This document shows positions 13,608-48,680 of a DNA stretch of 64,000 nt, one piece after another (position 1 is the first letter of the stretch; the number at the start of each line of letters is the position of its first letter). This DNA comes from Clostridium tanneri (lineage in GTDB: Bacteria; Bacillota; Clostridia; Clostridiales; Clostridiaceae): the NCBI RefSeq assembly GCF_033659955.1, contig NZ_JARUJP010000006.1, positions 138,434 through 202,433 on the forward strand, read 5' to 3'. Under the pieces are notes generated by a model. That model worked only from the letters and a program-made list of their open reading frames with translations. It was not told the origin of the DNA and searched no databases. The position numbers were made by a program, and so were the translations under genes.

Positions 13608-14051
13608 ATGACAGATTGTCATAAAAAAACTAAAGATTCTTGTAGCCACACTAAAAATCCTTGTAATCTTTGCAACCAATTTGCCAGGATACTTGGAGCA
13701 GAAATTTTAACATCTACAAGAGATTTATGCGTTGTGACATTTCTTAGAGATATAGATGCAACAATATTAGGAAGACCAACTCATTCTCCATTAGCTTTAG
13801 CTGCTTTATTCTCTTTCGAATCTACCGATAGCTGTGGAAGAACTCTTAATTTAGGTGAAACAGTAATTTTACAGAAAGAAATTAATGATTTCATTACAAT
13901 TCTTAGAGAACATGGAATAACAGTTACTGCTCTCCATAACCATTGGTTATTTGATAATCCAAGACTCATGTATATTCACTTTGAATCTATTGATGAACCT
14001 TTAAATTTCGCAAGAAAAGTAGCAGATGCTTTACGCGTCTTAAGGTGCTGA
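13608..14051 (+). CDS. hypothetical protein with a Cys-rich N-terminus (147 aa)
   Basis: SD GGGGTGA. N-terminal CHKKTKDSCSHTKNPCNLCNQ, and a C-terminal HNHW motif. Confidence 0.5.
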   Translation: MTDCHKKTKDSCSHTKNPCNLCNQFARILGAEILTSTRDLCVVTFLRDIDATILGRPTHSPLALAALFSFESTDSCGRTLNLGETVILQKEINDFITILREHGITVTALHNHWLFDNPRLMYIHFESIDEPLNFARKVADALRVLRC

Positions 14052-14262
14052 TGCTTTACACGTTTTAATATAATTAGCTCGGGTAACTGCTGAATATTCT
14101 GCAGTTACTTTATTACATAAAAACCCCTATTATTATATCCTCAATTTTTCTTATTACCTAGACACATATTATTTCGCATCTAAATTTACCTATATTCCTA
14201 ATCATAATTTTTAAGTGTAACATTAATATTTTTTAATTTTTGCCGTTTTTTTGCCGTTTGCC

Positions 14263-14291
14263 TTGTCAATACCCCGGAAGTGTTGTATAAT
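14263..14291 (+). promoter_or_regulatory. sigma-A promoter (TTGTCA, 17-nt spacer, TATAAT)
   Basis: TTGTCA at 14263-14268 and TATAAT at 14286-14291 with an exact 17-nt spacer. It is upstream of the riboswitch-like leader. Confidence 0.5.
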
Positions 14292-14305
14292 CAATGTTTG
14301 TAAGC

Positions 14306-14356
14306 CGTGAGAAGTGTTCCTTGCCTAACCACTTCTACAATAAAAAAAACAAGGAG
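14306..14356 (+). promoter_or_regulatory. candidate class-I preQ1 riboswitch (translational)
   Basis: P1 AGAAGTG/CACTTCT closes a 13-nt loop TTCCTTGCCTAAC. An A-rich tail ACAATAAAAAAAA follows. Loop CCTTG (14318-14322) is complementary to CAAGG (14349-14353) inside SD AAGGAGG, which fits the H-type pseudoknot layout of preQ1-I aptamers. Confidence 0.55.
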
Positions 14357-14367
14357 GTAAATAAAAA

Positions 14368-15060
14368 ATGATACGATACAGCTTAGTAGAAGATAAAAAT
14401 CAACGTGAAATTGTTTTACTTAAGGCGTCACCATGTATTTGGAGTCGCTGTTCTTTTTGTGACTATATACACGACAATAGCGAAGATACCGCCGCCAATG
14501 TAAGGCTAAACAAAGAAGTTCTTGAAAATATTACAGGCAAGTACAGATCCTTAGAAGTGATAAATTCAGGAAGCTGTTTTGAATTACCTAAGGATACTTT
14601 AACCGACGTTAAAGAAGCAATATTCTCTAAAGGTATAGAAAAGCTATTTTTAGAAAGTCACTGGATTTATAGAAACAGACTTAATGAAATGAGGGAGTTC
14701 TTTGAAGTTCCCATTATCTTTAAATGCGGTATAGAAACCTTCGATGACAATTTCAGAAACAATGTTCTAAATAAAGGAGCCATATTCTCAGGTCCAGAGG
14801 AAGTATCTAAATATTTCAACTCTATATGTCTCATGGTAGGAATTAAAGGGCAAACTAAAGATATGATTAAAAAAGACATTGAATATTTATTAAAGTATTT
14901 CCAATACGGATGTATAAACATGTATGTTGAAAATACTACACCCCTGAAGAGAGACGCTGAGCTAATTCAATGGTTTAGAGAGAATTACAGTTTCTTAGAG
15001 CATAATGATAATATAGAAATTCTTTGGAATAATACTGACTTTGGAGTTGGAGGAGAATAA
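14368..15060 (+). CDS. radical-SAM-like protein with a noncanonical CX4CX2C cluster motif; candidate queuine lyase (QueL-like) / Q-precursor salvage enzyme
   Basis: 230 aa, with N-terminal ...LLKASPCIWSRCSFCDYIHD. It is co-transcribed with a QueT-family gene behind a preQ1-riboswitch-like leader. Confidence 0.45.
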   Translation: MIRYSLVEDKNQREIVLLKASPCIWSRCSFCDYIHDNSEDTAANVRLNKEVLENITGKYRSLEVINSGSCFELPKDTLTDVKEAIFSKGIEKLFLESHWIYRNRLNEMREFFEVPIIFKCGIETFDDNFRNNVLNKGAIFSGPEEVSKYFNSICLMVGIKGQTKDMIKKDIEYLLKYFQYGCINMYVENTTPLKRDAELIQWFRENYSFLEHNDNIEILWNNTDFGVGGE

Positions 15061-15061
15061 A

Positions 15062-15550
15062 ATGAATAATAGTAGTAAAAACATAAAAAAATTAGTCAAA
15101 ATTGCAATAACTGCTGCCATATATGCAGTAGCAACAGTATCCATAGCTCCCTTAAGTTACGGTGCTGTGCAATTTAGATTTTCCGAGGTGATGACTCTTT
15201 TAGCATTCATTGATCCTATATATATACCTGGTCTTGTACTTGGATGTGCTATATCAAATCTTTACAGCCCTTTAGGGATAGTTGATGTATTAGTTGGAAC
15301 TACAGCTACTCTATTGGCAGTTTACATGATAAAGAAAACAAAAAGTTTATTTATTGCAACCCTTTGGCCTACTATAGCAAACGGATTAATTGTAGGGGCT
15401 GAATTATATTTTGCATTAAATCTTCCATTTTTGGAATCTGCTTTATATGTCGCTCTAGGAGAATTTGTTGTAGTCACCTGTATAGGATACCCTTTATTTA
15501 AATTATTAATGAAAAGAGAAGATGTGATGAAGGTACTGAAATACCAGTAA
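15062..15550 (+). CDS. queT: QueT-family queuosine-precursor transporter (ECF S-component-like)
   Basis: Start at MNNSSKN after SD GGAGGAGAATAAA. About 163 aa with 5-6 TM helices and the QueT-typical ...GAVQFRFSEVMT... block. Confidence 0.7.
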   Translation: MNNSSKNIKKLVKIAITAAIYAVATVSIAPLSYGAVQFRFSEVMTLLAFIDPIYIPGLVLGCAISNLYSPLGIVDVLVGTTATLLAVYMIKKTKSLFIATLWPTIANGLIVGAELYFALNLPFLESALYVALGEFVVVTCIGYPLFKLLMKREDVMKVLKYQ

Positions 15551-15607
15551 ATTTTTATCCGATATTCTATCTGATTCTTAGTTTATCTTCATTACTAAAT
15601 ATTTAAT

Positions 15608-15669
15608 AAAAGCAGAAAAGTTAAGAACTTGCTATCAGTTTTATAAAAAGTTCTTAGCTTTTCTGCTTT
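15608..15669. terminator. bidirectional intrinsic terminator (22-bp stem)
   Basis: AAAGCAGAAAAGTTAAGAACTT ... AAGTTCTTAGCTTTTCTGCTTT followed by ATTT. It lies between the convergent queT and GGDEF-EAL genes. Confidence 0.6.
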
Positions 15670-15682
15670 ATTTCTAATATTT

Positions 15683-17617
15683 TTACTTTATCCCCTTTTG
15701 AAAGGATGAGTTTTCGAAAACTGTAGCCATTTCTTCTGGCGGAAGAGGTCTTCCAAAATAATATCCTTGAATTTTATTACAACTTTTAACTTCTAGAGAT
15801 TTTAGTTGTTCCTCTAGCTCTACCCCTTCTGCAACGACCTCTAAATCCATTTTATGTGCAAGATTTATTATTTGCTCAGTGATTATTTCTTCATAGGAAT
15901 TTTTACAAAGTCCATCAATAAATGTTTTGTCTATTTTTAGCGTGTTTATAGGTAAGCTTTTTAAATAATTTAAGGAAGAATATCCCGTTCCAAAGTCATC
16001 TAGAGCTACTCTTACCCCTATACCTCTTAACTCGTTTAAGGCACTTAAATTTAATTCTAAGGACTCCATCATAACACTCTCTGTTATTTCAATTTCCAAA
16101 GCTTGCGGATCTGTATTTGTTTCCTTCAAAACCTTCTTAACTGCCGCTACAAAATCACTTTTTTGAAGCTGAATGGCAGAGACGTTAACAGAAATAAAAT
16201 TATAACAATAACCTTTATTTCTCCACTCCCTGTTTTGCTTACAAGCAGTTCTTAAAACCCACTCACCGATTGGTACTATTAAGCCTGTTTCCTCAGCTAG
16301 GCTAATAAATTCTCTAGGTGAAACCCACCCGAATTTTTTATTATTCCACCTAATAAGTGCTTCGAAACTTACTATTTTTCTAGTCTCTACATCTACTTGC
16401 GGCTGATAATATAGCGTAAATTCTCTATTTTTGATAGCCTTTCTAAGCTCAGCTTCTAATTCGGTTTTTCTAAGAACCTCATCATACATTGATCTTTTAA
16501 AGAACTTATAGGAACTCTTTCCATCAGCCTTAGCTTTGTTTACTGCTATATTTGCATTTCTTAATATTCTAGTAATATCTTCACCATCACCTGGATAAAT
16601 GCTTATACCTATACTAACTGATATGAAAAACTCTTTTTCATCAATTTCCCACAAACCATTTGAGGATGCTAATAATCTCTCTGCAGTTGCTGCAACTACT
16701 TCTTTATCTTCTACCCCTGTCTGCAGTATCAAGAACTCATCTCCACCAGTTCTTGATACTATAAACCCTTCGCCAAGCTCATTTTGAATAGCCTGTCCTA
16801 TTTTCTTTAACAGCTTATCTCCATACTCATGTCCAAAGGTATCGTTAACATTTTTAAAATTATCTAAATCAATGTGGTAAACAGCAAAGTACTCATGGTT
16901 ATCTATCCTATCGTTCAGCTCTTTTCTAAAAAAGTTCCAGTTAGGTAAATCCGTAACAAAATCATAGTATGCCATTCGTTCCATCTCTTTGTACTGTTCT
17001 CTAAGCTCTTGTTCTGCAGCACTAAGCTGTTCATATACAGCTGAAAGTTCTAAATAATTTTCGTTTATTAATTTATTAGCTTCTAATTCTTTTAGATTCT
17101 TATATCCTAATTCTCCGAACATCCTTGCACCCTTACAAAGAAAATCTATCATTTTTTTAATATCATCTTCTGAAACCACAGGAATTTGCTGTATAGTTTT
17201 TATATATTCATCTTCAATAAGTCCAAAATACTTAGCCTGATTTTTAAAATATTCAATTTTAGGTTCTTTAAAAAATACTTGACCTGCAAATAATGTAGCT
17301 ATGTTTTTCCCATTAATTATTATCGGAGCACCTATATATATCAAACCGCTCGTACATCTACATATAGCGTATTCCTTACCCTCTTTTATTTGTTTTAAAA
17401 TATTTCTTTCCGCCCCATCACATTTAAATCTATATAAGAAATCATATTTGTTTATATCACTACAATTATCACTATTTTTGGCTACTAATTTATCATCGTT
17501 GTCCTTTATTAGACAACTTATCCCTGTTACTGAATAAAAACTATTAACCAACTCCTGTAACTCGCCCATGTTCACTAGTTCCGAAAATTTATATTCCAAG
17601 CTCCCACCAACTTTCAT
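15683..17617 (-). CDS. PocR-like sensor domain / GGDEF / EAL protein (c-di-GMP turnover)
   Basis: N-terminal Cys-containing sensory domain (CRCTSGLIYIGAPIIINGKNIATLFAGQV, PocR-like), a GGDEF motif (RTGGDEFLIL) and an EAL domain (EALIRWNN, DDFGTGYSSL). Confidence 0.85.
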   Translation of the reverse strand: MKVGGSLEYKFSELVNMGELQELVNSFYSVTGISCLIKDNDDKLVAKNSDNCSDINKYDFLYRFKCDGAERNILKQIKEGKEYAICRCTSGLIYIGAPIIINGKNIATLFAGQVFFKEPKIEYFKNQAKYFGLIEDEYIKTIQQIPVVSEDDIKKMIDFLCKGARMFGELGYKNLKELEANKLINENYLELSAVYEQLSAAEQELREQYKEMERMAYYDFVTDLPNWNFFRKELNDRIDNHEYFAVYHIDLDNFKNVNDTFGHEYGDKLLKKIGQAIQNELGEGFIVSRTGGDEFLILQTGVEDKEVVAATAERLLASSNGLWEIDEKEFFISVSIGISIYPGDGEDITRILRNANIAVNKAKADGKSSYKFFKRSMYDEVLRKTELEAELRKAIKNREFTLYYQPQVDVETRKIVSFEALIRWNNKKFGWVSPREFISLAEETGLIVPIGEWVLRTACKQNREWRNKGYCYNFISVNVSAIQLQKSDFVAAVKKVLKETNTDPQALEIEITESVMMESLELNLSALNELRGIGVRVALDDFGTGYSSLNYLKSLPINTLKIDKTFIDGLCKNSYEEIITEQIINLAHKMDLEVVAEGVELEEQLKSLEVKSCNKIQGYYFGRPLPPEEMATVFENSSFQKGIK

Positions 17618-21102: not shown

Positions 21103-21606
21103 TTATACAGCCCTTCTTAATGCTGTATTTACTACATTAGATAATATAAGTGAGGCTACAGTATTTATCAAAGATGCCGGTAAAACCACAGATAAAAATA
21201 GTATAGTGAATTTAGTCGGTAGGCCTACCATAAGAGAAGCTGCTGTTAAAAACACTGTGCCGCTTACTATAGTTCCTACTATTGTAACTAAAACAATTTT
21301 TAATTGATGGTTTATATTATTTCTCATAGGTTTTAAGAATAAAAATATTACATTTGCTGTTATAATCTTGTCTATAAAATTTGCTATTTGTCCCCCAGGA
21401 AAAGTAGTTGTTGCTGCTGATAGTATTCCTGCTACAATTCCTGCACTTATACAAGTTTTATAATCCTTATTTAGAATCATTATTATAAATAACATTACCA
21501 AAGAAAAATCCGGCTTCATACCTAATACTATTGGAGGGGAAATTTGATGCAATACAGCACCTATAGCTAAAAACAGTGAGTTTAAGATAAGGTTTTTTAC
21601 ATTCAT
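21103..21606 (-). CDS. trpP: TrpP-family tryptophan transporter (ECF S-component-like)
   Basis: About 167-aa membrane protein, likely starting at MNVKNL. A T-box leader with terminator is directly upstream. Confidence 0.6.
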   Translation of the reverse strand: MNVKNLILNSLFLAIGAVLHQISPPIVLGMKPDFSLVMLFIIMILNKDYKTCISAGIVAGILSAATTTFPGGQIANFIDKIITANVIFLFLKPMRNNINHQLKIVLVTIVGTIVSGTVFLTAASLMVGLPTKFTILFLSVVLPASLINTVASLILSNVVNTALRRAV

Positions 21607-21619
21607 GAAATACATCTCC

Positions 21620-21997
21620 TTTTCAAATAATAATCAAATGATAATAGATGAATATATAAACTCTTTCACAACATAGCAACTCCTCCTGAAATATTTATTT
21701 AAAATAAAAAACTCCGTCCTAATAAATAGGACGGAGATATCCGCGGTACCACCTAAATTGTGTTTAAAATAAACACCTCTTAATTTCAGGCACTAACATG
21801 CCTCATCCACTATAACGTGTGGCTTACGGTAATTGACTACTCTTTAAAAACTCTAAATTTCGATTTACTCCTCAAAGGCCCATTCACTGGTAACTATCGT
21901 ATTGAGATCACACCATCCTCAACTCTCTGTAACTAAGTAATACAGCTACTCTTCCTCATCAAAGGATTAATTAATATTAAACTGTATTTATATACTA
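21620..21997 (-). promoter_or_regulatory. T-box riboswitch leader (probably Trp-specific) with promoter
   Basis: Minus strand: TTGACA-17-TGgTAGTAT promoter (22020..21992). The conserved T-box sequence AATTTAGGTGGTACCGCGG is at 21758..21740. A terminator follows, with candidate UGG specifier positions (GAAUGGG, GAUGGU). Confidence 0.7.
21701..21735 (-). terminator. T-box leader terminator
   Basis: Minus strand: CTCCGTCCT atttat AGGACGGAG followed by TTTTTTATTTT. The 5' arm overlaps the region that would pair with the T-box sequence in an antiterminator. Confidence 0.7.
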
Positions 21998-48366: not shown

Positions 48367-48680
48367 TAAGTATAGTATACCATTTATGTTGTATCTGTCA
48401 ACTAGATTTACCATATTTGCTTAATAATATTATATTAAGATATAGGGTTTTTGTGACTCCTTATAAAGATATTTTATATTAATAAATATTGACATCTGCA
48501 TTATTTAAAGATATAATTTTTACTACAAAACAAAAAGAATACTTATCGGTTGGGCAAATTTAAAAATTTGCTTTCAAGCAGTTCGGTTTCTAGGGAGGGA
48601 AACTCTTTTATGAGTTTTCCTTCTTTTTATTTTTTGCATTTATGCTACTAAACAAAAAAGGTTAACAATTTAAAGTTATA

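What the first reader, a model, noticed from the sequence alone, without database searches (positions are those of the whole stretch)
14241..15550. Candidate preQ1-I riboswitch controlling a noncanonical radical-SAM gene plus a QueT transporter: likely queuine/preQ1 salvage module
Seen in sequence:
- A textbook promoter TTGTCA-17-TATAAT (14263-14291) sits upstream of a short leader.
- In that leader a 7-bp helix AGAAGTG/CACTTCT encloses the loop TTCCTTGCCTAAC.
- The helix is followed by an A-rich tail ACAATAAAAAAAA.
- Loop CCTTG (14318-14322) is exactly complementary to CAAGG (14349-14353) inside the SD AAGGAGG.
- This is the H-type pseudoknot logic of class-I preQ1 riboswitches, where ligand binding sequesters the SD.
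- The first gene (14368-15060) encodes a 230-aa protein whose only Cys cluster is CIWSRCSFC, i.e. CX4CX2C rather than the canonical radical-SAM CX3CX2C.
- The second gene (15062-15550) is a QueT-family S-component (VQFRFSE block).
Established knowledge:
- QueT/QrtT transporters are typical preQ1-riboswitch targets.
- Clostridioides difficile salvages queuine through a radical-SAM queuine lyase encoded beside a Q-precursor transporter.
Inference:
- This operon is a Q-precursor salvage unit.
- The enzyme may be a QueL-type lyase or a distinct rSAM-like enzyme with unusual cluster ligation.
- No queuosine hydrolase gene is adjacent, so a hydrolase partner may be elsewhere or absent.
Basis: partly seen in the sequence, partly recalled or inferred. 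Interest (0 to 1): 0.7.

Follow-up and report, generated by a model that had tools for sequence, protein, structure and literature searches.

The report
Riboswitch-controlled queuine salvage operon queL-queT
A small RNA switch of the known preQ1 class I kind sits in front of a two-gene operon, a queuine lyase (QueL) and a QueT transporter; this is a new example of a published queuine salvage system, not a new one.

Summary

**Enzyme.** The 230-aa protein is an orthologue of the characterised radical-SAM queuine lyase QueL:
- 55% identity to crystal structure 6P78, with TM-score 0.95 for the predicted model
- 63% identity to C. difficile QueL
- Its CX4CX2C motif is the family norm, also present in 6P78, not an oddity.

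**Transporter.** The second gene is a QueT-family S-component (PF06177, 148.7 bits).

**Leader RNA.** It has every sequence hallmark of a type-II preQ1-I pseudoknot:
- UU after the P1 5' strand
- AC before the P1 3' strand
- an A-rich tail
- a 5-6 bp P2 that covers the ribosome-binding site

It scores only 17.5 bits on Rfam RF00522 (threshold 39), and the alignments point to its 7-bp P1 and longer tail as the cause.

Independent support for the leader:
- A covariance model built from 14 leaders of other genomes finds this one site in the 64 kb, at 60.6 bits (E about 6e-10).
- In 25 distinct relatives, the six loop-proximal P1 pairs always form, and four of the six show compensatory changes.
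- The same loop core also precedes stand-alone queT genes and a queT-tgt pair.

**Differences from the C. difficile operon.** There is no queK, the transporter is QueT rather than QrtT, and queL comes first.

**Verdict.** A new member of a known kind, of modest interest.

The parts
14263..14291 (+). Sigma-70-type promoter: -35 TTGTCA (14263-14268), 17-nt spacer, -10 TATAAT (14286-14291). The inferred transcription start near 14298 gives a leader of about 70 nt.
   Evidence: 11 of 12 consensus matches, the best site in 14000-15800. This is a consensus match only; the transcription start is inferred.
14310..14355 (+). preQ1-I-like H-type pseudoknot aptamer:
- P1 5' strand 14310-14316
- L1 UU 14317-14318
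- P2 5' strand CCUUG 14319-14323 (U14318 can add a sixth pair)
- L2 CCUAAC 14324-14329; C14329 is the predicted specificity base, preceded by A
- P1 3' strand 14330-14336
- A-rich L3 14337-14349
- P2 3' strand CAAGG(A) 14350-14354(5)
   Evidence: anatomy. (independent CM: 60.6 bits, only hit in the window). (covariation). (RF00522 at 17.5 bits, below threshold). (definitions of the types).
14351..14357 (+). Shine-Dalgarno AAGGAGG of queL. Its first 4-5 bases form the 3' strand of P2. The ATG follows at 14368.
   Evidence: P2 pairs 1-5 can form in all 24 distinct relatives.
14368..15060 (+). queL: radical-SAM queuine lyase orthologue, 230 aa, with cluster motif C23-x4-C28-x2-C31.
   Evidence: 6P78: E 1.8e-78, residues 1-228. 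(AF2 model pLDDT 90.8; TM 0.95 to 6P78). (63% identity to C. difficile QueL). (invariant Cys triad).
15062..15550 (+). queT: QueT-family ECF S-component, 162 aa. It has its own SD, GGAGGAG at 15049-15055, inside the 3' end of queL. Its start codon lies one base after the queL stop.
   Evidence: PF06177, 148.7 bits. (junction). (queT follows queL in 45 of 80 species).
15609..15669 (.). Hairpin with a 22-bp stem followed by a T-rich run. It is the likely bidirectional terminator shared by queT (+) and the convergent PocR-GGDEF-EAL gene (-).
   Evidence: MFE -36 kcal/mol, z-score -7.0, 0 of 200 shuffles as stable. The terminator role is inferred.

Best explanation
This is a self-contained, feedback-regulated queuine/preQ1 salvage operon.

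1. A sigma-70-type promoter drives a leader of about 70 nt.
2. Leader bases 14310-14355 fold into a preQ1 class I (type-II-like) H-type pseudoknot.
3. When preQ1 is plentiful, it stacks between P1 and P2, paired to C14329. This stabilises the 5-6 bp P2 helix, which hides AAGGA of the queL ribosome-binding site, so translation of queL falls (an OFF switch). Expression of the closely following queT probably falls as well.
4. When preQ1 is scarce, the tail is free and both genes are made.
5. QueT, docking on a shared ECF energising module encoded elsewhere, imports the Q precursor.
6. QueL, a radical-SAM enzyme with a CX4CX2C-bound 4Fe-4S cluster, cleaves the cyclopentenediol from queuine to regenerate preQ1. 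The ordinary bacterial Tgt then inserts preQ1 into tRNA.

**Shown here:** sequence and fold identity of QueL and QueT; conservation and covariation of the RNA; its position over the SD; its association with queL, queT and tgt.

**Inferred:** preQ1 as the ligand; the OFF logic; that this QueT imports queuine (about 0.6); coupling of queT expression to queL.
For: **QueL**
- PDB 6P78 'queuine lyase': 266 bits, E 1.8e-78, residues 1-228 aligned, same C-x4-C-x2-C.
- The AF2 model (pLDDT 90.8) matches 6P78, which was solved bound to SAM and queuine, at TM 0.95, rmsd 1.6 A, 55% identity. The next hit is HydE at TM 0.48.
- 63% identity to the QueL of the C. difficile queK-qrtT-queL operon. That operon is documented as preQ1-I-riboswitch-controlled salvage (PMC11477304).

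**QueT**
- PF06177, 148.7 bits.

**RNA**
- CM R1, built from 14 leaders of other genomes, gives one hit in the window: 14305-14360, 60.6 bits, E 6e-10.
- In 25 distinct sequences, 99.3% of cells pair. All 6 loop-proximal P1 pairs always form, and 4 of them show compensatory changes. 0 of 500 shuffles reach this, and slid registers pair only 28-68%.
- Type-II hallmarks are all present: UU atop the P1 5' strand, AC before the P1 3' strand, and an A-rich L3 ending in A before P2.
- RF00522 is the only riboswitch family that touches the site, here and in its relatives.

**Context**
- A metagenome scan for the loop core found 11 sites that also had a P1 of at least 5 bp and a nearby CA[AG]G. The downstream ORF could be read in 10 of them, and all 10 encode QueT. 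One of these is followed by tgt.
- In C. difficile-type operons the same position carries RF00522 hits above threshold, 43-58 bits.
Against: - RF00522 scores 17.5 bits, far below the gathering score of 39.
- The leader's MFE is no better than shuffled sequence (z -0.08).
- P2 shows almost no covariation because it is also the SD.
- The 11 metagenomic sequences were filtered for a P1 of at least 5 bp, and the alignment was fitted to the P1 model. Both inflate the percentage paired.
- P1 (7 bp) and L3 (13 nt) are longer than in the solved 5-bp aptamers.
- QueT-type transporters under type-II switches are described as moving only preQ1 (PMC11625349). One C. difficile transporter moves only preQ1. 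How queuine reaches QueL is therefore unproven.
Confidence: 0.85

Rival explanations
1. Same operon and switch, but QueT imports only preQ1. QueL would then act on queuine that enters by another transporter or arises inside the cell from tRNA turnover. The two genes would be parallel routes to preQ1, not a linked import-then-cleave pair.
For: A review states that queT genes under type-II switches encode a transporter that exclusively transports preQ1. One of the two C. difficile S-components moves only preQ1. The C. difficile operon partner of QueL is a different family (QrtT, PF12822-like).
Against: queT directly follows queL in 45 of 80 species, and none of the 45 shows another recognised Q-precursor transporter (QrtT) or queK within 3 kb. 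39 of 43 queL-linked QueT form a clade apart from 9 stand-alone QueT. That tree is small, biased in its sampling and has no bootstrap. An enzyme whose substrate cannot enter the cell would be useless.
Confidence: 0.25
2. The leader is a variant aptamer with a changed ligand, such as queuine or preQ0, or with a changed stoichiometry. It would not be a preQ1 sensor.
For: The Rfam score is below threshold, and P1 and L3 are extended. The operon's substrate is queuine. Type-I members of the class are known to bind two ligands.
Against: The positions that define preQ1 recognition in type II are invariant: the specificity C preceded by A, U after P1, and A before P2. SD sequestration on ligand binding is end-product OFF logic, the wrong sign for substrate induction by queuine. 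The same loop core precedes queT and tgt genes that have no queL.
Confidence: 0.07
3. The hairpin and A-tail are conserved leader sequence without ligand sensing. They could be an mRNA-stability element or a protein-binding element, with the SD complementarity incidental.
For: No thermodynamic signal. P2 lacks covariation. There is no Rfam hit at threshold.
Against: P1 shows compensatory changes at 4 of 6 pairs, while the loop and tail bases that would contact the ligand stay invariant. The association is exclusively with Q-precursor genes, across Clostridium, Tyzzerella, Oscillospiraceae and metagenomes. RF00522 is the best riboswitch-family hit in every copy.
Confidence: 0.05
4. The 230-aa protein is a radical-SAM enzyme with another function, RaSEA-like or novel, and its CX4CX2C motif signals unusual chemistry.
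For: PF04055 scores only 20.8 bits, below its cut-off of 29.5. There is a weak hit to RaSEA TIGR01210, 48.6 bits. Public records call it only 'radical SAM protein'.
Against: RaSEA's cut-off is 212 bits, so that test is not met. The match to queuine lyase 6P78 is full-length, with the same Cys spacing and TM 0.95. It is 63% identical to the genetically validated C. difficile QueL.
Confidence: 0.03

Closest known systems
Clostridioides difficile queK-qrtT-queL salvage operon under a preQ1-I riboswitch (Yuan et al. 2019 PNAS, as summarised in PMC11477304 and PMC11570991)
   Same: Both have a QueL orthologue (63% identity). In both, an ECF S-component gene sits beside it and a preQ1-I-type leader precedes the operon. 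Both follow the logic of regenerating preQ1 from queuine.
   Different: Here there is no queK hydrolase in the operon or anywhere in the 64 kb. The transporter is QueT (PF06177), not QrtT (PF12822-like). queL comes first. The aptamer overlaps the SD (translational control) and scores below the Rfam threshold, whereas the C. difficile leader scores 43.2 bits and lies about 100 nt upstream of queK.
Queuine lyase QueL, PDB 6P78 (Clostridium spiroforme, bound to SAM and queuine)
   Same: 55% identity over the whole length, TM 0.95, rmsd 1.6 A, and an identical C-x4-C-x2-C cluster motif.
   Different: Only ordinary orthologue divergence. No activity data exist for this protein.
preQ1-I type II translational riboswitch (Thermoanaerobacter tengcongensis queT leader; Bacillus subtilis queC leader)
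   Same: Both form an H-type pseudoknot with AC before the P1 3' strand and an A-rich L3. P2 uses SD bases. Both are found upstream of queT. From my own recollection of the Tte 33-mer, not checked here, it shares the L2 ending UAAC and the tail AAAACAAGG.
   Different: P1 is 7 bp here (6-9 bp in the 24 relatives) against 5 bp. L3 is 13 nt. P2 is 5-6 Watson-Crick pairs covering AAGGA of the SD, whereas Tte buries two SD bases. RF00522 scores 17.5 bits against a threshold of 39.
preQ1-I type III riboswitch (E. coli yhhQ leader, PDB 8FZA)
   Same: Both have UU after P1 and AC at the specificity position. Both have a pyrimidine-rich 5' half of the loop and a variable linker followed by poly-A before AAGG. 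In both, AAGG is occluded by Watson-Crick pairing.
   Different: Type III has a short loop with a 3-nt L2 and a G-C-rich short P1. It occurs almost only in Gammaproteobacteria and controls yhhQ. Here the loop is 13 nt, P1 is A-U rich and long, and the host is a Clostridium.
Archaeal RaSEA (TIGR01210), the radical-SAM enzyme of archaeosine synthesis
   Same: Weak similarity over residues 14-141. Both act on 7-deazaguanine derivatives.
   Different: 48.6 bits against a cut-off of 212. RaSEA is 313 aa and works on tRNA-bound substrate together with ArcS. The window protein is not a member.

Membership tests
preQ1-I riboswitch (Rfam RF00522) | Scores at or above the curated gathering threshold of the family covariance model | tested here: not met
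   17.5 bits against 39, and no hit at threshold in the whole window. Relatives also fall short at 20.7-27.8 bits. The cmscan alignments show the cause: extra bases between the P1 core and the A-tail.
preQ1-I riboswitch (Rfam RF00522) | H-type pseudoknot: a P1 hairpin, plus a P2 formed between the loop and the 3' tail | tested here: met
   P1 pairs in 100% of 25 distinct sequences, with compensatory changes at 4 of 6 pairs. P2 pairs in 98.4%, with little covariation. 0 of 500 shuffles reach this.
preQ1-I riboswitch (Rfam RF00522) | Specificity cytosine immediately 5' of the P1 3' strand, preceded by A (type II) or U (type I); U(U) after the P1 5' strand; A-rich L3 | tested here: met
   UU at 14317-14318, AC at 14328-14329, and L3 ACAAUAAAAAAAA. 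These positions are invariant in alignment A2. The definitions come from PMC11625349.
preQ1-I riboswitch (Rfam RF00522) | Compact aptamer of about 34 nt with a 5-bp P1 | tested here: not met
   P1 is 7 bp and the aptamer is 46 nt here. P1 is 6-9 bp and L3 is 6-14 nt in the 24 distinct relatives.
preQ1-I riboswitch (Rfam RF00522) | Located in the 5' leader of queuosine synthesis or transport genes | tested here: met
   It precedes queL-queT here and in 14 other genomes. The same core precedes queT in 10 metagenomic contigs, one of them queT-tgt.
preQ1-I riboswitch (Rfam RF00522) | Binds preQ1 and changes gene expression | not testable with these tools
   This needs ITC, in-line probing or reporter assays.
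QueL queuine lyase | Full-length sequence and fold homology to characterised QueL (6P78; C. difficile QueL) | tested here: met
   E 1.8e-78 over residues 1-228. TM 0.95, 55% identity. 63% identity to C. difficile QueL.
QueL queuine lyase | Three-Cys radical-SAM cluster motif with the family's spacing, CX4CX2C | tested here: met
   C23, C28 and C31 are invariant in 12 diverse members. 6P78 has the same spacing.
QueL queuine lyase | SAM-dependent conversion of queuine to preQ1 | not testable with these tools
   This needs an enzyme assay or complementation.
QueT transporter (PF06177) | Pfam model at the gathering threshold over its full length | tested here: met
   148.7 bits against 33.7, covering profile positions 1-141 of 141.
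QueT transporter (PF06177) | Works with an ECF energising module (EcfAA'T) | not tested
   No ECF core genes lie beside the operon. The rest of the window was not screened for them.
C. difficile-type queK-qrtT-queL operon | Queuosine hydrolase QueK and a QrtT-type S-component in the same operon | tested here: not met
   tblastn with C. difficile QueK and QrtT finds nothing in the window. C. difficile QrtT is PF12822-like, not PF06177.
RaSEA (TIGR01210) | NCBIfam equivalog cut-off | tested here: not met
   48.6 bits against 212.15, and only residues 14-141 align.
Canonical radical SAM (PF04055, CX3CX2C) | Pfam gathering score and CX3CX2C spacing | tested here: not met
   20.8 bits against 29.5, and the spacing is CX4CX2C. 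The fold is still a radical-SAM partial barrel: HydE, LipA, RlmN and Elp3 are the next structural hits.

The most novel reading that the evidence does not exclude
Aptamers with a P1 of at least 6 bp, upstream of queL-queT and queT in Clostridia and relatives, pair with most of the SD. They may form an uncurated subtype of preQ1-I that the current Rfam model misses in every copy scored here (17.5-27.8 bits). In addition, the queL-linked QueT clade may be queuine importers rather than preQ1-only importers. Free-queuine salvage without a nucleoside hydrolase would then be common in environmental Clostridia, not only in host-associated pathogens.
Probability: 0.3. Interest if true: 0.45.

Novelty: new member of a known kind. 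Interest (0 to 1): 0.3.

Why it matters
The region needs no new biology. The enzyme, the transporter family and the riboswitch class are all published, and their joint use for queuine salvage is known from C. difficile. Three things are practically useful.

1. **Annotation.** Public records call this protein only 'radical SAM protein', although it is a clear QueL. The name could be propagated to more than 2,000 homologues.
2. **Riboswitch detection.** Every leader of this kind that was scored here falls below the Rfam RF00522 threshold. That covers both queL-queT and queT leaders (17.5-27.8 bits). Riboswitch censuses based on that threshold therefore undercount preQ1 regulation in Clostridia.
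3. **Transporter specificity.** The two-gene queL-queT form, without queK, is the commonest arrangement among the 80 nearest species. This suggests that some QueT proteins carry queuine itself, which is a testable extension of that transporter's known specificity.

Tried and rejected
- **Rfam at gathering threshold on the whole window.** No PreQ1 hit. The local permissive scan gave 17.5 bits with a mis-registered P1. I did not take this as refutation, because the relatives show the same shortfall and the alignments show an insertion after P1.
- **MFE folding of the leader.** z = -0.08, uninformative. The pseudoknot is not modelled and the helix is short.
- **P1 length against L3 length.** I tested whether the two co-vary, as a pseudoknot signature. 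Across the long- and short-P1 groups rho is 0.65. Within the long-P1 group rho is 0.01. The correlation is therefore a between-clade difference and I do not use it as evidence.
- **Type III membership.** Considered because of UU plus AC plus AAGG occlusion. Rejected because the loop is 13 nt with a 6-nt L2, P1 is long and A-U rich, and the host is not a gammaproteobacterium.
- **RaSEA membership and 'novel rSAM with odd ligation'.** Both rejected.
- **Papers not held.** Yuan et al. 2019 (PNAS), McCown et al. 2014 and the 2024 MMBR review could not be read. What those papers say about queL gene neighbourhoods and about type-2 consensus limits could not be checked.
- **Metagenome pattern scan.** Most of the 121 matches were chance hits. 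Only 11 passed the structural filter.
- **Flanking genes.** They are rubrerythrin, rhomboid, DUF1529, PocR-GGDEF-EAL, S1, a sigma-70-family sigma factor with DUF4367, and TrpP. None has a link to queuosine.
Full report
**1. What is in the sequence**

- A near-consensus promoter, TTGTCA-17-TATAAT, lies at 14263-14291. It matches 11 of 12 positions and is the best site in the region.
- The leader contains the helix AGAAGTG (14310-14316) / CACTTCT (14330-14336) around the 13-nt loop TTCCTTGCCTAAC.
- The tail ACAATAAAAAAAA (14337-14349) follows.
- CAAGGAGG comes next. Its CAAGG (14350-14354) is complementary to loop CCTTG (14319-14323). A sixth U-A pair is possible.
- The ATG is at 14368.
- ORF 14368-15060 encodes 230 aa with CIWSRCSFC.
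- ORF 15062-15550 (162 aa) starts one base after the queL stop and has its own GGAGGAG at 15049-15055.
- A hairpin with a 22-bp stem at 15609-15669 (z -7.0) closes the unit. It faces a convergent PocR-GGDEF-EAL gene.
- Other neighbours are DUF1529, rhomboid, rubrerythrin, S1, a sigma factor with DUF4367, and TrpP. None is related to queuosine.

**2. The proteins**

The 230-aa protein falls below Pfam's radical-SAM cut-off (20.8 against 29.5 bits). It only grazes archaeal RaSEA (48.6 against 212 bits).

Against solved structures the answer is unambiguous.
- It matches chain 6P78_A, 'queuine lyase', at E 1.8e-78 over residues 1-228. That chain carries the same C-x4-C-x2-C spacing.
- An AlphaFold model (pLDDT 90.8) superposes on 6P78 at TM 0.95, rmsd 1.6 A, 55% identity. 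6P78 is the Clostridium spiroforme enzyme bound to SAM and queuine. The next hit, HydE, is at TM 0.48.
- The three cysteines are invariant in 12 members from different genera.
- More than 2,200 homologues exist. The nearest is from Clostridium sp. CX1 (98%), and those that carry a functional name are labelled 'radical SAM protein' or similar generic terms.
- A scan of one genome per species returned 80 loci, including C. difficile (63% identity). There the gene is the last of queK-qrtT-queL. That operon is documented as preQ1-riboswitch-controlled salvage, in which QueK frees queuine from queuosine and QueL turns queuine into preQ1.

The protein is therefore QueL, and its 'non-canonical' motif is the family norm. 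The second protein is QueT (PF06177, 148.7 bits).

**3. Operon forms**

Among the 80 loci:
- 45 have queL followed directly by queT, as here, and none of these 45 has queK within 3 kb
- 29 have the C. difficile form, (queK-)qrtT-queL
- 7 show queL alone

(The 45 also counts the query window itself.) C. difficile QrtT is PF12822-like and is not a QueT. The window holds no QueK or QrtT homologue. The missing hydrolase is thus a regular feature of a widespread two-gene form.

**4. The RNA**

*Rfam and folding.* Rfam at threshold finds only a T-box and a Na+ riboswitch in the window. A local permissive scan gives RF00522 PreQ1 at 17.5 bits (threshold 39), with P1 mis-registered. Folding energy is uninformative (z -0.08).

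*Comparative evidence.* Fourteen queL-queT leaders from Clostridium, Tyzzerella, Fimicola, Oscillospiraceae and others carry the same architecture directly before the start codon.
- A covariance model built from those 14, without the window, finds exactly one site in the 64 kb. It is 14305-14360 at 60.6 bits, E about 6e-10. The next best is 17.1 bits.
- A metagenome scan for the loop core added 11 more copies with quite different P1 sequences.
- In the combined 25 distinct sequences, the six loop-proximal P1 pairs are always formed. Four of the six show compensatory changes, with G-U intermediates.
- P2 forms in 98% of cells.
- No shuffle out of 500 matches these values, and slid registers pair only 28-68%.

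*Caveats.* The alignment was fitted to P1. The metagenomic copies were pre-filtered for a P1 of at least 5 bp. P2 cannot covary much because it is the ribosome-binding site.

*An unselected check.* In all 10 metagenomic copies whose downstream ORF could be read, that ORF is a QueT. One is followed by tgt.

**5. Which kind of preQ1 switch**

A recent review gives the defining marks of the three types:
- Type I has UC before the P1 3' strand and binds two ligands.
- Type II has AC.
- Type III has UU plus AC, a short pyrimidine loop, and AAGG occlusion, and occurs in Gammaproteobacteria.

Here UU follows the P1 5' strand and AC precedes the P1 3' strand. The tail is A-rich and ends in A before P2. 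The element therefore fits type II, the type known to control queT translationally.

It departs in three ways:
- P1 is 7 bp here, and 6-9 bp in relatives.
- L3 is 13 nt.
- P2 is a fully Watson-Crick helix of 5-6 bp that covers AAGGA of the SD.

The cmscan alignments of relatives show the extra bases between the P1 core and the A-tail that cost the Rfam score. All relatives tested score 20.7-27.8 bits. Leaders of the C. difficile-type operons score 43-58 bits.

I tested whether P1 and L3 lengths co-vary. They do between clades (rho 0.65) but not within the long-P1 group (rho 0.01), so I do not count this as evidence.

**6. Mechanism**

*Shown:* the identities above, and the position of P2 over the SD.

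*Inferred:*
1. preQ1 stacks between P1 and P2, paired with C14329.
2. This stabilises P2 and blocks ribosome binding at queL, an end-product OFF switch. No terminator lies between the aptamer and the ATG.
3. queT, starting one base after the queL stop, probably follows by coupling or mRNA decay.
4. QueT, with an ECF core encoded elsewhere, imports the precursor.
5. QueL regenerates preQ1 from queuine for the ordinary Tgt.

The weakest step is the substrate of QueT. The literature describes QueT under type-II switches as preQ1-only, and one C. difficile S-component as preQ1-only. The tight queL-queT linkage in 45 species argues for queuine transport by this subgroup. So does the tentative separate clade of queL-linked QueT (39 of 43; small biased sample, no bootstrap). 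It remains unproven.

**7. Verdict**

This is a new member of a known system (preQ1-I riboswitch, QueL, Q-precursor S-component). Two modest variations stand out:
- a hydrolase-free queL-queT form that uses QueT instead of QrtT
- an extended-P1, SD-covering aptamer that the curated Rfam model misses

I could not read Yuan et al. 2019 or McCown et al. 2014, so these variations may already be described there. Interest is modest (0.3).

Noticed in passing
window 21724-21971 (-) and 21103-21615 (-): A T-box leader (RF00230, 125 bits) lies directly upstream of a TrpP tryptophan-transporter gene (PF17099, 204.7 bits). This is presumably tRNA-Trp-sensing control of Trp uptake.
   Followed up: partly
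window 48548-48604 (+): A Na+ riboswitch aptamer (DUF1646 motif, RF03071) at 57.1 bits, above its threshold of 40.5. The downstream gene was not examined.
   Followed up: no
window 15609-15669 and 15683-17617 (-): A PocR-GGDEF-EAL signalling protein converges on queT. The two genes share one very stable hairpin with a 22-bp stem (z -7), probably a bidirectional terminator.
   Followed up: partly
window 14240-14259: The 9-nt direct repeat TTGCCGTTT occurs twice, 11 nt apart (14240-14248 and 14251-14259), immediately upstream of the -35 box of the queL promoter. It could be a regulator site or an UP-like element. It was not seen in the leaders of the closest loci.
   Followed up: no
L012, L031, L032, L053, L055, L061 (about 50-120 nt upstream of queL; e.g. 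L053 2905-2951): In these queL-queT loci the leader is instead a type-I-like aptamer (UC before the P1 3' strand, tail AAAACUAAGG). A terminator hairpin follows in most of them, which implies transcriptional control. L053 scores 25.3 bits on RF00522 with a 4-nt insertion after an 8-bp P1, so it too is missed at the threshold.
   Followed up: partly
L018, L023-L025, L027, L030, L040, L045, L046, L051, L064, L066, L068, L070, L073, L075, L079 (just upstream of queL): A second SD-overlapping leader type has a 4-6 bp P1 (AGUG/CACU) and the loop UUUCCUUGGUACC, with CC rather than AC or UC before the P1 3' strand, then CAAGGG. L018 scores 22.8 bits on RF00522. L018, L024, L027, L064, L070 and L073 gave no hit at the threshold. 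The CC dinucleotide fits none of the three published type definitions.
   Followed up: partly
L082, L090, L093, L094, L116, L148, L155, L160, L165, L195 (metagenome contigs): The same loop core as in the window (UUCCUUGNNUAAC) precedes stand-alone queT genes. In L116 it precedes queT-tgt (TGT, PF01702, 520 bits). All score below threshold on RF00522 where scored (20.7-27.8 bits).
   Followed up: yes
52 QueT proteins from the fetched loci: In a neighbour-joining tree, 39 of 43 queL-linked QueT form one clade, separate from 9 stand-alone QueT. This hints at a queuine-transporting subgroup. The sample is small and biased, and no support values were computed.
   Followed up: partly
L001, L003, L009, L011 (about 150-850 nt upstream of queL, opposite strand): In several Clostridium species, including C. 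muellerianum, C. carboxidivorans and C. tyrobutyricum, a cluster of three tRNA genes lies just upstream of queL on the other strand. Their anticodons were not checked.
   Followed up: no
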